A stretch of DNA of 64,000 nt from Escherichia coli (lineage in GTDB: Bacteria; Pseudomonadota; Gammaproteobacteria; Enterobacterales; Enterobacteriaceae), in the NCBI RefSeq assembly GCF_016903815.1, contig NZ_CP069973.1; one strand, given 5' to 3'. Position numbers: made by a program. Positions 9,001 to 12,000 of this stretch are shown here, in pieces. Each line of letters begins with the position of its first letter. The stretch's first letter is position 1.

Positions 9001-12000
9001 GCATCGATATCCTCCGGGCTCGCAGGGCGACCGGCCTGATGACCCGCGACAATTACAGAACGGTAAATAACATTACCCTGGGTAAGTATCCGGAGGCGAA
9101 ATGATGACACTGGAAGCCGACAGCGTTAACGTACAGGCGCTGGATATGGGGCACATTGTCGTTGACATTGATGGTGTTAATATCACTGAACTGATTAATA
9201 AGGCCGCTGAAAACGGTTATTCACTCCGCGTGGTGGATGACCGTGACTCTACCGAAACACCGGCAACTTATGCCAGCCCTCACCAGTTGCTGTAAGACAA
9301 TGCAGTGATGCAGGGTATAGTGCCATTAACCACAGAAACAGCACTGTTGTCCTGTATTAAGCAGGCAAGAGAAGATGTCCTTACCCTGCGCCATCTGCAG
9401 CTTCTGCACCAGAACCGGTGAATCTCACTCAACAGGCTTCATTTCCCCTGACGCCAGCCTGAATACAGCTGGCGTTTTCATTTATAAACAGAAAGGAAAA
9501 CCGATAATAATGGAATGGACGCCCCGACCATGAAGCAACGGTAGGATATTACTGATAAACCTTCCAGTGGAGGTGCGTTATGGCCGTTTTAACGATTAGC
9601 ATTGACCTGACAAAAAATGAATTCCAAATCCACGGTCTGGGTAGGAACAGAAAAATCTAAGCTCAGAAAACGGATTAAAGTAAGCGTCAACGGAGCACCG
9701 TATTGACGCTTATTTATTGGTGAGAACTACGTTCCATGGCAGGAGTTCGTCAACACGGTTGGAGGGCCATTCCGGCAGTATGCTCAGAATATGGCGCAGA
9801 TACGCTTCCGGATCGATACCGTTCAGACGGCAGGTGCCTGCTTTTCCGGCAACAAGCAGGAATCTCAGCGCTGAAGCAGGAATTAGAGGTAAAAACGCCC
9901 TACCGGGCCATGAATCACCCGGTCATTGGAGTAGTAACCAAAGCAGATTTAGCCAGCATGGAACAAATATCTTTGGTGAAAAGTTGGTTACGGGAAGCTG
10001 GAGCGCACAACGTGTTAGTAACCAGTGCAGTTAATAACAATGGAGTTACAGAACTTTTTGCCTTGCTGCATACAGAAGAAGGCTGTTGTTAATTTCGATT
10101 GGTTCTCAGATGAGAATGATGACGGTGATACACAGATAAGAATCAATGAGCAATGAGGGTTGCCGGGCAACCCTCATTGAATAAAACGGGAATTACTTCG
10201 CTTCGCCGTTTTTCATTTCGCCCATAGCTTTCAGCTTTTTGGAGATATCGCGGCGTTCTTTGGAGAGCTCGGCATTTTTGATGATGTAATCGTCAACGCG
10301 ATCTTCATAGTCACCTTTCATGCTGGCGATGATGCCCTGGATTGCTTCAACGCTCATCCCTGGCTTGATGTAATCGCTCAGGTTGTCCAGCAACAGGACG
10401 CGCTTCTGGTTGTCACGGATCTTTTTCTCAACGTCCTGAATTTCACGTTGCAGTTTGTTCTTACGACGGAACAGACGAACAAATTCCAGTACGTCCTGGA
10501 ATGAAGGCTTGGTAGTTTCCATTTTTATACCCCTGATAATGTGAGAGTCGGATTCGTTTAAGCAACCGCTATTCGTTAGGGCCAACATTACTCATAGCTG
10601 CCGCAGATGACAATGCTTTTATCCCTTTTCACTATCATACCCTTTATCCTTGCTGAATCGAAGCAGCAGCAAGATGATTCTGAAGTTCAGGAATTATTTG
10701 CGCAAGGCCCGGCAAATCAGATTCGATAGCAACTCAAGCTGATGTGCCGTTTCCATGTTCAGCCACACATAACCATAGATTGGTGTTTCCACAACCTTCA
10801 GGTCATGGTGGTTATCGAGCAACTGACGCAGCTCTTCCACAGCATCGTTCAATTTTTCCGTATTGGCAAAAACCGGCTGCGGATTACCTTCGTACAGCGC
10901 ATGAACAAGGCTCAGCAGTATTTGCTGCATCATGTGCTGGGTATCACGAAGTTTTTGCGCGTTCAATAACACGAAATGGCTGGGGCGCGTGGCCCAGTAC
11001 GCATTGATTTGCAACTCCAGCATACAAACCAGATTGCGGTTAATGGTCTGGATACCTTCATATATCGATTTGGGAATACGGGTTTCTTTGCTGGCGGGCG
11101 CAATCAGCCCACGCATTTTCACGGCATCGGTCAGCAGTTTTTGTAGATGGCTTTCCAGACGTGGGCGTTCGAGTAAGTTCGGTGAGAATGCAGATTGATA
11201 GACCCGATTATACTCGGTCAGACTTTTCGCCAGTTGAATGCGCCAGTGGATGAACGCCCGTTGTGGCCAGATACCGGTAAACAACATTGCCAGTAAAGAG
11301 CCGAGGATCACATCGCCGCTTCGCCATAACGCCGTATCAATTTCACCTGTCGGGGAACCCACAACAATTGCCAGCGTCACCCCAATCAATAATCCTTGAT
11401 ACGGTTTCTTGCCCAGCGCCAGCCAACCGCAAAGAAACATCGCCGCCGCGCACCAGACTAACATCAGCGGTAACGAAATTAACTCCAGTTGCAGAGCGAT
11501 AAGACCTAAAATCGACCCCAACACCGTACCGCCAATACGTTCGAAGGCACGAGGGACAACGTTCCCCCAGAACGAGATTGGCCCCATAATCACCACCATG
11601 GTGACCAGCGGCCAGGTGCTTTCCGGGATAGTAAACAGGCGGATAATGAGAAAAGTGAGCAGGAATGCCAGCGCGACCCGAGTACCATGCACAATGCGGT
11701 AATGGCGGTATACCCGGATTTCAAACGGGCTTAATGACTTATCGGCACGCACTCAGAAACTCCGTAATGAAGATGAAAAGCGCTCATAACACATCTGTCG
11801 GCCAGAAGGCGCGCCTCTGAGTTATCCGACGGACATACCGGGAACAGTGTAATTTCCCGGCAGGAGCGAAAAATTTGAAAGGCGTATCTTACTCTTTTCG
11901 CTTTCAAAAAAAGAGTGGTCTTCGCGTTAACACACCGCCCTGAGATGAATTAGTGATGTTTTGGCTGCACCGCAACATACATTTCGATATCCCAGTACCC

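What the first reader, a model, noticed from the sequence alone, without database searches (positions are those of the whole stretch)
9300..10192. Island boundary marked by transposase and EutP-like remnants immediately before core gene yeeX
Seen in sequence: after yeeW there is a terminator, a 26-codon fragment resembling an IS110-family transposase N-terminus (9580-9660), a hairpin (9683-9710) and an EutP/PduV-like C-terminal fragment (9736-10092), before the conserved core gene yeeX. Established knowledge: in K-12 the CP4-44 remnant ends with yeeW, yoeD and yoeF next to yeeX. Inference: the whole 1-10100 segment is a CP4-like integrative element whose cargo slot, which in K-12 holds flu/Ag43, is here occupied at least in part by the GTPase/phospholipase operon and the secreted proteins.
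Basis: partly seen in the sequence, partly recalled or inferred. Interest (0 to 1): 0.35.

Follow-up and report, generated by a model that had tools for sequence, protein, structure and literature searches.

The report
Decayed island edge beside lost pdu operon
This stretch is the well-known right edge of the E. coli CP4-44 cryptic island, a pile of broken gene pieces with no likely function, and its "EutP-like" piece is the stump of the propanediol-utilisation operon that the island displaced, not part of the island.

Summary
Window 9280-10200 differs from the K-12 yeeW/yoeD/yoeF/tmaR(yeeX) junction at 4 of 921 bases, so the feature is real and already annotated.

- **9509-9680:** left end and first ~33 codons of an IS110-family element. 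It was a simple insertion at the start codon of the island's last gene (DUF4942).
- **9681-9838, minus strand:** right end of ISEc23 (IS66 family). This is K-12 yoeD.
- **9839-9909:** DUF4942 codons ~38-61.
- **9910-10092:** last 60 codons of pduV. In E24377A, pduV is the intact last gene of a pdu operon lying next to tmaR.

The 118-codon ORF (YoeF) is therefore a three-part chimera, and the island ends at 9909|9910, not ~10100. That is exactly where K-12 annotation ends CP4-44.

The pduV stump is chromosomal backbone. It lies next to tmaR in 5417 of 5426 complete genomes, including island-less SE11.

In near-identical strain 7/2 and in K-12 I found no integrase and no tRNA inside the island. 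I also found no Asn-tRNA repeat between asnV and tmaR in strain 7/2.

The "cargo slot" inference holds: the slot lies between yeeP and yeeS.

This is ordinary and of low interest.

The parts
9101..9295 (+). yeeW (64 aa, only the DUF5983 N-terminal domain)
   Evidence: Pfam PF25638 E 2e-29; PGAP/K-12 annotation
9329..9421 (+). C-terminal fragment of a DUF957 gene (pseudogene)
   Evidence: PGAP annotation in the identical sequence of strain 7/2. My Pfam scan of the overlapping ORF was negative, so this rests on annotation only.
9427..9508 (+). Island backbone: the intergenic region that precedes DUF4942 genes in other CP4-like islands. It holds a terminator-like hairpin at 9450-9476 followed by a T-rich run.
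   Evidence: 83-90% identical to the sequence just upstream of DUF4942 genes elsewhere; fold dG -16.1, z -4.7
9509..9680 (+). Left end and first ~33 codons of a decayed IS110-family element (ATG at 9580, frameshift near 9640, stop at 9658-9660). It was inserted at the DUF4942 start codon.
   Evidence: Collinear with the full-length IS110 pseudogene of strain P30 (L005:9085 to ~10450); N-terminus 52.6% identical to IS110 transposases, E 3e-7; Transposase_20 in the collinear C-terminus
9681..9838 (-). Right end of ISEc23 (IS66 family): terminal GTAAGCG and palindrome at 9681-9715, and the last 42 codons of tnpC at 9710-9838 (= K-12 yoeD)
   Evidence: 93-99% identical to ISEc23 ends on plasmids, with homology from 9681 to 9838; PF13817 E 1e-15; K-12 yoeD coordinates; fold z -6.7
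9839..9909 (+). Internal fragment (codons ~38-61) of the island's DUF4942 gene; the last island sequence
   Evidence: 98.8% identical to P30 L005:10567-10637. The 187-nt P30 segment matches intact DUF4942 genes at 72-77.5% (E to 8e-31) and at protein level 46% over 59 aa (E 2e-11). On its own the 71-nt piece is too short to score.
9910..10092 (+). 3' end of pduV (codons 88-147 plus stop); the remnant of the displaced pdu operon, chromosomal backbone
   Evidence: Homology to intact E24377A pduV starts at 9910; PF10662 E 2.7e-13; next to tmaR in 5417/5426 genomes
9736..10092 (+). YoeF ORF (118 codons). It is a chimera of the antisense of ISEc23 tnpC (aa 1-34), DUF4942 (aa 35-58) and PduV (aa 59-118).
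   Evidence: combined with the breakpoints above
10151..10179 (.). 13-bp-stem hairpin between the convergent pduV' and tmaR genes; probably a shared terminator
   Evidence: dG -21.8/-21.0 kcal/mol, z -5.1/-5.7 on the two strands; conserved in E24377A
10193..10522 (-). tmaR (formerly yeeX), the first intact core gene
   Evidence: Pfam DUF496 E 2.3e-45; annotation

Best explanation
The region is a non-functional junction scar where the right end of a degenerate CP4-44-type island meets the stump of the chromosomal pdu (1,2-propanediol utilisation) operon.

**Shown**
- The ancestral layout at this site is cobTSU, a cbiP remnant, pocR, pduF, pduA through pduV, then tmaR in convergent orientation. 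E24377A still has it.
- In the K-12 lineage and in this strain's near-identical relative 7/2, everything from inside the cbiP remnant to pduV codon 87 (17.5 kb in E24377A) has been replaced by island DNA.
- The right joint fuses codon ~61 of DUF4942, the island's last gene, in frame to pduV codon 88 (window 9909|9910).
- An IS110-family element sits as a simple insertion at the DUF4942 start codon and has decayed.
- ISEc23 entered the IS110 transposase gene after codon 33 (window 9680|9681).

**Inferred**
- A later deletion ran from inside ISEc23 tnpC to DUF4942 codon ~38. It removed about 2.4 kb of ISEc23, about 1.2 kb of the IS110 element and the first 116 nt of DUF4942. That left the 158-nt ISEc23 end joined at 9838|9839 with no microhomology.
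- The order of the island replacement and the IS110 insertion is unknown.
- Nothing here is likely to act, except the hairpin at 10151-10179, which probably terminates tmaR.
- The island has lost its integrase and both att sites, so it should be immobile.
For: - Near-identity to K-12 across the whole junction. K-12's CP4-44 feature ends at 2078748, which equals window 9909, and yoeD equals window 9710-9838.
- Intact pdu operon with a 147-aa PduV next to tmaR in E24377A. Homology to it starts at window 9910.
- The left breakpoint is identical in strain 7/2 and K-12 (E24377A locus 2466|2467).
- Island-less SE11 has cobU, the cbiP remnant, a 297-nt pduV stump and tmaR.
- Strain P30 keeps the earlier state: a whole IS110 pseudogene followed by a DUF4942(1-61)::PduV(88-147) ORF.
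- ISEc23 end and breakpoints.
- Counts among 5426 complete genomes: K-12-type junction 3139, P30-type 570, intact pduU-pduV 644 and other pduV truncations about 186.
- A full ISEc23 in the same orientation 113 bp further into the same IS110 gene in strain C288 shows that such insertions do happen here.
Against: - No genome was found with a complete ISEc23 at exactly 9680|9681 and the rest of the IS110 element intact. The insertion-then-deletion order is therefore inferred from the end structure only.
- The 71-nt DUF4942 piece is identified only through its identity to P30. On its own it is not significant.
- No close (>80%) parent DUF4942 gene exists in the collection, so microhomology at 9909|9910 cannot be assessed.
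- K-12 RefSeq still lists YoeF as a CDS. I could not test whether it is expressed.
Confidence: 0.9

Rival explanations
1. One reading: the island extends to about 10100, and the transposase and EutP-like fragments are island cargo or boundary markers just before core gene yeeX.
For: K-12 literature and databases list yoeD and yoeF as CP4-44 genes (the y-ome paper PMC11551758). The fragments do lie between yeeW and tmaR.
Against: - The EutP-like part is colinear with intact pduV in the pdu operon at the same site.
- It is present in island-less genomes and in 5417/5426 genomes.
- K-12's own prophage feature ends at the equivalent of window 9909.
- The IS110 and ISEc23 pieces are nested inside the island's DUF4942 gene region. 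They are not at the island edge.
Confidence: 0.05
2. YoeF (9736-10092) is a genuine expressed small protein, a chimeric gene born from the junction, rather than a meaningless ORF.
For: The ORF is open for 118 codons, is annotated as a CDS in K-12 RefSeq, and is kept in 3139 genomes. The DUF4942-PduV joint is in frame.
Against: - The first 34 codons are the antisense strand of a transposase gene.
- The PduV part lacks the first 87 residues, and with them the P-loop GTPase N-terminal half.
- PGAP calls only the last 60 codons.
- No promoter-like site was found in front of it.
- Its conservation is explained by recent common descent (99-100% identity).
Confidence: 0.04
3. The IS110-family (RNA-guided) recombinase itself created the island/pduV joint by recombining an island site with a pduV site.
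For: An IS110-family element lies within 400 bp of the joint, and PGAP labels some copies 'RNA-guided transposase'.
Against: In strain P30 the element is flanked on both sides by contiguous DUF4942 upstream and coding sequence (...CCGATAAT | IS | ATGTCAGAT...). It is therefore a simple insertion, and the pduV joint lies 187 nt beyond its right end. No Rfam RNA family was detected.
Confidence: 0.01

Closest known systems
E. coli K-12 cryptic prophage CP4-44, right end (yeeW, yoeD, yoeF, then tmaR/yeeX)
   Same: 4 mismatches in 921 bases across the junction. Strain 7/2 (99.997% identical to the window over 29 kb) shares K-12's left breakpoint, and the window shares its right breakpoint. The yeeS-yeeT-cbeA-cbtA-yeeW module is also the same.
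   Different: The cargo between yeeP and yeeS is dynamin/RdcB/patatin, two hypothetical genes, DUF932 and an antirestriction gene instead of isrC-flu-yeeR. cbtA is frameshifted in the near-identical strain 7/2.
pduV, the last gene of the E. coli pdu operon (as in E24377A)
   Same: Window 9910-10092 is its 3' 183 nt (54/60 residues identical), with the same intergenic hairpin and the same neighbour tmaR.
   Different: Codons 1-87 and the whole operon upstream are missing, so no GTPase can be made.
ISEc23 (IS66 family)
   Same: The terminal 158 nt, including the GTAAGCG end and the tnpC C-terminal domain, are 93-99% identical.
   Different: About 2.4 kb is missing (the rest of tnpC, tnpB, tnpA and the other end). 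It is a one-ended stump.
IS110-family insertion sequences
   Same: The N-terminal residues align to IS110 transposases. The collinear full copy carries Transposase_20 and is about 1.37 kb with an apparent 2-bp (AT) flank repeat.
   Different: Only 172 nt remain here. Even the full copies carry a frameshift and stops. No second active copy was seen in E. coli genomes or plasmids.
[quoted passage not shown]
   Same: Loss of the cluster leaves a stump of the terminal gene at the conserved flank (PMC3158058).
   Different: In this E. coli lineage the gap is filled by island DNA, and the stump is of pduV. In E24377A pduV, not pduX, is the last pdu gene before tmaR.

Membership tests
CP4-like (P4-type integrase) integrative island | Tyrosine integrase gene at one end, next to a tRNA or tmRNA gene | tested here: not met
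   No integrase is annotated between asnV and tmaR in strain 7/2 or K-12. tblastn with K-12 IntA, AlpA and YfjI finds nothing at E<1e-3. There is no tRNA in window 1-12000. asnV is separated from the island by ldtA-cobTSU.
CP4-like (P4-type integrase) integrative island | attL/attR direct repeats (3' end of the tRNA) at both ends | tested here: not met
   The strain 7/2 asnV-to-tmaR interval has no Asn-tRNA-derived repeat longer than 10 nt apart from asnV itself. The right end is truncated inside DUF4942, before where attR would be. Only the Asn tRNA was tested.
CP4-like (P4-type integrase) integrative island | Conserved backbone module: YeeP-type GTPase, cargo, DUF932, antirestriction, RadC, YeeT, CbeA, CbtA, YeeW, DUF957, DUF4942 | tested here: met
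   All are present in this order, several as fragments.
K-12 CP4-44 specifically | Same chromosomal junctions (inside the cbiP remnant on the left, DUF4942'|pduV' on the right) | tested here: met
   The left joint is identical in strain 7/2 and K-12. The right joint is identical and coincides with K-12's annotated prophage end.
IS110 family | DEDD-type N-terminal domain plus Transposase_20 C-terminal domain in one gene | tested here: inconclusive
   In the window only ~33 codons remain. They show N-terminal similarity at E 3e-7 but give no Pfam hit. The collinear full copy in P30 has Transposase_20 at E 8.7e-11 but is itself a pseudogene.
IS66 family (ISEc23) | Terminal repeat beginning GTAAGCG and a tnpC with the IS66 C-terminal domain; tnpA and tnpB upstream | tested here: met
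   The end sequence and C-terminal domain are met. tnpA, tnpB and most of tnpC are absent, so this is a fragment of a member and not a complete element.
EutP/PduV GTPase family | Complete ~143-residue domain including the N-terminal P-loop | tested here: not met
   Only profile positions 86-142 of 143 are matched, whereas intact E24377A PduV matches 1-142. The window copy is a 3' remnant.

The most novel reading that the evidence does not exclude
The 5' 135 bp of this single-copy, dead IS110 gene may be a preferred target for IS66-family elements. Three independent insertions were seen in different lineages, at positions equivalent to P30 9255, 9368 and 9390. Alternatively, the in-frame junction ORFs (YoeF in K-12-type genomes, DUF4942::PduV in P30-type genomes) may be translated into a chimeric protein with some retained role.
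Probability: 0.05. Interest if true: 0.3.

Novelty: already known. Interest (0 to 1): 0.12.

Why it matters
It matters little beyond annotation hygiene.

- **yoeF.** It is still listed among uncharacterised CP4-44 genes (y-ome paper). It is best described as a three-part junction chimera whose only recognisable domain is the tail of pduV.
- **Island boundary.** The CP4-44 right boundary should be read as 9909|9910 in this window.
- **IS110 remnant.** The remnant at 9509-9680 is unannotated in both K-12 and PGAP records.
- **pdu loss.** About 12% of complete E. coli genomes keep the pduU-pduV region intact at this site. The pdu-less genomes examined carry pduV stumps with at least two different truncation points. 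That points to repeated loss of propanediol utilisation in the species.

Tried and rejected
- **Pfam and NCBIfam on the 26-aa ORF and on a 59-aa repaired N-terminus:** no hits. IS110 identity had to come from collinearity and tblastn instead.
- **Rfam at permissive threshold** on the window junction and on the fuller P30 locus: no RNA family, including nothing for an IS110 guide RNA.
- **Simple terminator scan:** it did not flag either hairpin. Folding did.
- **Strain 8GC as a possible intermediate:** rejected. Its IS66-type insert sits at another site with its own 9-bp duplication and does not match the window's ISEc23 piece.
- **Synthetic-junction search for a genome with complete ISEc23 at 9680|9681:** none found. 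C288 has a full ISEc23 113 bp further in.
- **Search for other copies of the IS110 element, to define its ends:** only the same locus or matches below 80% identity. The ends were instead defined from the DUF4942 flanks.
- **Search for a close DUF4942 parent, to look for microhomology at the pduV joint:** the best match is 77.5%.
- **Literature searches** for yoeF, pduV, CP4-44 with pdu, and cob/pdu remnants: no paper in the held library describes this dissection.
- **Integrase, tRNA and att searches:** negative.

Full report
**What is there**

The stretch 9280-10200 differs from E. coli K-12 MG1655 at only 4 of 921 positions. It corresponds to K-12's yeeW, yoeD, yoeF and tmaR (formerly yeeX). 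The window as a whole is 99.997% identical over 29 kb to strain 7/2 (NZ_CP023820). I used that strain to look upstream of the window. The feature is therefore real, very common, and already annotated. A place covering at least 80% of window 9100-10700 occurs in 3139 of 5426 complete E. coli genomes.

1. **Hairpin after yeeW.** A hairpin at 9450-9476 followed by a T-rich run folds well (dG -16.1 kcal/mol, z -4.7). The pattern scanner missed it.
2. **The 26-codon ORF 9580-9660.** It exists and is the start of an IS110-family transposase gene.
   - In strains such as P30_L1_05.20 the same sequence continues into a 1029-nt gene that PGAP calls an IS110 family transposase pseudogene.
   - The window is collinear with it up to base 9680.
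   - A frameshift-repaired N-terminus aligns at 52.6% identity to annotated IS110 transposases (E 3e-7).
   - The C-terminal ORF of the full copy hits Pfam Transposase_20 (E 8.7e-11).
3. **Hairpin 9683-9710.** It is real (z -6.7), but it is the terminal sequence of ISEc23, an IS66-family element. Two plasmid copies of ISEc23 diverge from each other and from the window exactly to the left of GTAAGCG at 9681. They stay 93-99% identical up to 9838.
4. **The ORF 9736-10092.** It is K-12 YoeF, but EutP/PduV similarity covers only its last 60 codons (PF10662 E 2.7e-13, profile positions 86-142 of 143).

- On the minus strand, 9710-9838 encodes the last 42 residues of the ISEc23 transposase (PF13817 E 1e-15). 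This is exactly K-12 yoeD.
- The 71 bases 9839-9909 are 98.8% identical to the sequence that follows the IS110 element in strain P30.
- That P30 segment is the 5' end of a DUF4942 gene, the usual last gene of CP4-like islands. It matches intact DUF4942 genes at 72-77.5% DNA identity (E down to 8e-31) and at 46% protein identity over 59 residues (E 2e-11).
- In P30 the sequence to the left of the IS110 element (...CCGATAAT) and to its right (ATGTCAGAT...) together reconstitute the upstream region and start codon of DUF4942, as seen in a selC-associated island.
- So the IS110 element, about 1.37 kb, is a simple insertion at that start codon and not a boundary marker.

**Where the island ends**

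- In E24377A the site holds cobTSU, a cbiP remnant, a cobalamin riboswitch, pocR, pduF and pduA through a 147-aa PduV. tmaR follows immediately in convergent orientation.
- Window homology to that pduV begins at 9910 (ATGAATC...) and runs through the shared intergenic hairpin into tmaR.
- The same breakpoint is present in P30. There PGAP's 121-aa "EutP/PduV" protein is an in-frame DUF4942(1-61)::PduV(88-147) fusion.
- K-12's annotated CP4-44 feature ends at 2078748, which is window 9909.
- The pduV stump lies next to tmaR in 5417 of 5426 genomes. These include SE11, which has neither island nor pdu operon, only cobU, the cbiP remnant, a 297-nt pduV stump and tmaR.
- The EutP-like piece is therefore chromosomal backbone: the scar of the operon that the island displaced.
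- The pduU-pduV 5' region is intact in 644 genomes. A different pduV truncation, the SE11 type, occurs in about 186.

**The other end, and mobility**

- Homology between E24377A and both strain 7/2 and K-12 stops at the same base inside the cbiP remnant. PGAP annotates an IS4-family fragment starting 8 nt beyond that breakpoint.
- Between that point and 9909 I found no integrase, no tRNA, and no IntA, AlpA or YfjI homologue. The strain 7/2 interval from asnV to tmaR holds no repeat of the nearby Asn tRNA.
- The right end is cut inside DUF4942, short of where attR lies in complete islands.
- The element is thus a CP4-44-type remnant identified by backbone homology. It fails the defining tests of an integrative element.

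**Most likely history (inferred from the structures)**

1. The site originally held an intact pdu operon.
2. Island DNA replaced 17.5 kb of it, fusing DUF4942 codon ~61 to pduV codon 88.
3. An IS110-family element inserted at the DUF4942 start and decayed. Whether this came before or after step 2 is unknown.
4. ISEc23 inserted after codon 33 of the IS110 gene.
5. A deletion from inside ISEc23 tnpC to DUF4942 codon ~38 left the joint 9838|9839, which shows no microhomology.

I did not find the direct intermediate for steps 4-5. C288 carries a full ISEc23 in the same orientation 113 bp further in, and 8GC carries another IS66-type insert about 22 bp beyond that. Insertions of this kind clearly happen here.

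**The cargo-slot inference**

- Window 7464-12000 matches K-12 from yeeS onward at 99.25%.
- The GTPase gene just upstream of the window matches K-12 yeeP at 96%.
- The DNA between them differs: isrC-flu-yeeR in K-12, versus dynamin/RdcB/patatin, two hypothetical genes, DUF932 and an antirestriction gene here.

**Function**

None is expected for the fragments. YoeF is a chimera of antisense transposase sequence, 24 DUF4942 codons and a P-loop-less PduV tail. The one element likely to matter is the 13-bp-stem hairpin at 10151-10179 between pduV' and tmaR (z about -5 on both strands).

**Comparison with what is known**

- Loss of cob-pdu in E. coli is stated in the literature. An analogous terminal-gene stump is described in S. 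bongori (PMC3158058).
- yoeD, yoeF and the CP4-44 limits are in the K-12 record.
- No paper in the held library spells out the dissection given here, and a 2024 y-ome survey still lists yoeF as a CP4-44 gene. This is an annotation refinement and not a discovery.

**Verdict**

- Observation: partly confirmed.
- Interpretation: partly supported.
- Novelty: already known.
- Interest: low.

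Noticed in passing
window 29094-30401: An IS3-family element (orfA 30023-30349, orfB 29136-30026, minus strand; NF033516 E 3e-94) splits wzzB, the O-antigen chain-length determinant, into halves at 28484-29170 and 30355-30810. It is absent from the otherwise 99.997% identical strain 7/2. The flanks overlap by 5 bp, which suggests a target duplication. This strain may have altered O-antigen chain-length control.
   Followed up: partly
window 211-4576: An operon of a dynamin-family protein (798 aa), an RdcB-family protein and a patatin-like phospholipase occupies the slot that holds flu/Ag43 in K-12 (PGAP names from strain 7/2). 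I did not examine its function.
   Followed up: no
window ~8731-9104: The cbtA toxin gene of the CbtA/CbeA pair is frameshifted according to PGAP in the identical sequence of strain 7/2, while cbeA is intact.
   Followed up: no
L005:9255-9390 (strain P30 coordinates; window equivalent 9680 onward): Three independent IS66-family insertions fall within 135 bp of the 5' part of the dead IS110 gene in different lineages. They are the window/K-12 type at 9255, C288 at 9360-9368 and 8GC at 9382-9390. This could be a local insertion hot spot.
   Followed up: partly
L003:38676-48001 and L001:1-10900 (strain 7/2, upstream of the window): The left two-thirds of the island is a patchwork. It holds IS4, IS66, ISL3 and IS100 pieces, a run of decayed sugar-kinase, amidotransferase and transporter genes, zinc-ribbon genes and an inovirus Gp2-family gene. 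No integrase is present.
   Followed up: partly
L012 (SE11) and rows H220-H225: About 186 genomes carry a different, island-free deletion that joins the cbiP remnant directly to pduV at about codon 49. The pdu operon therefore appears to have been lost at least twice independently in E. coli.
   Followed up: partly
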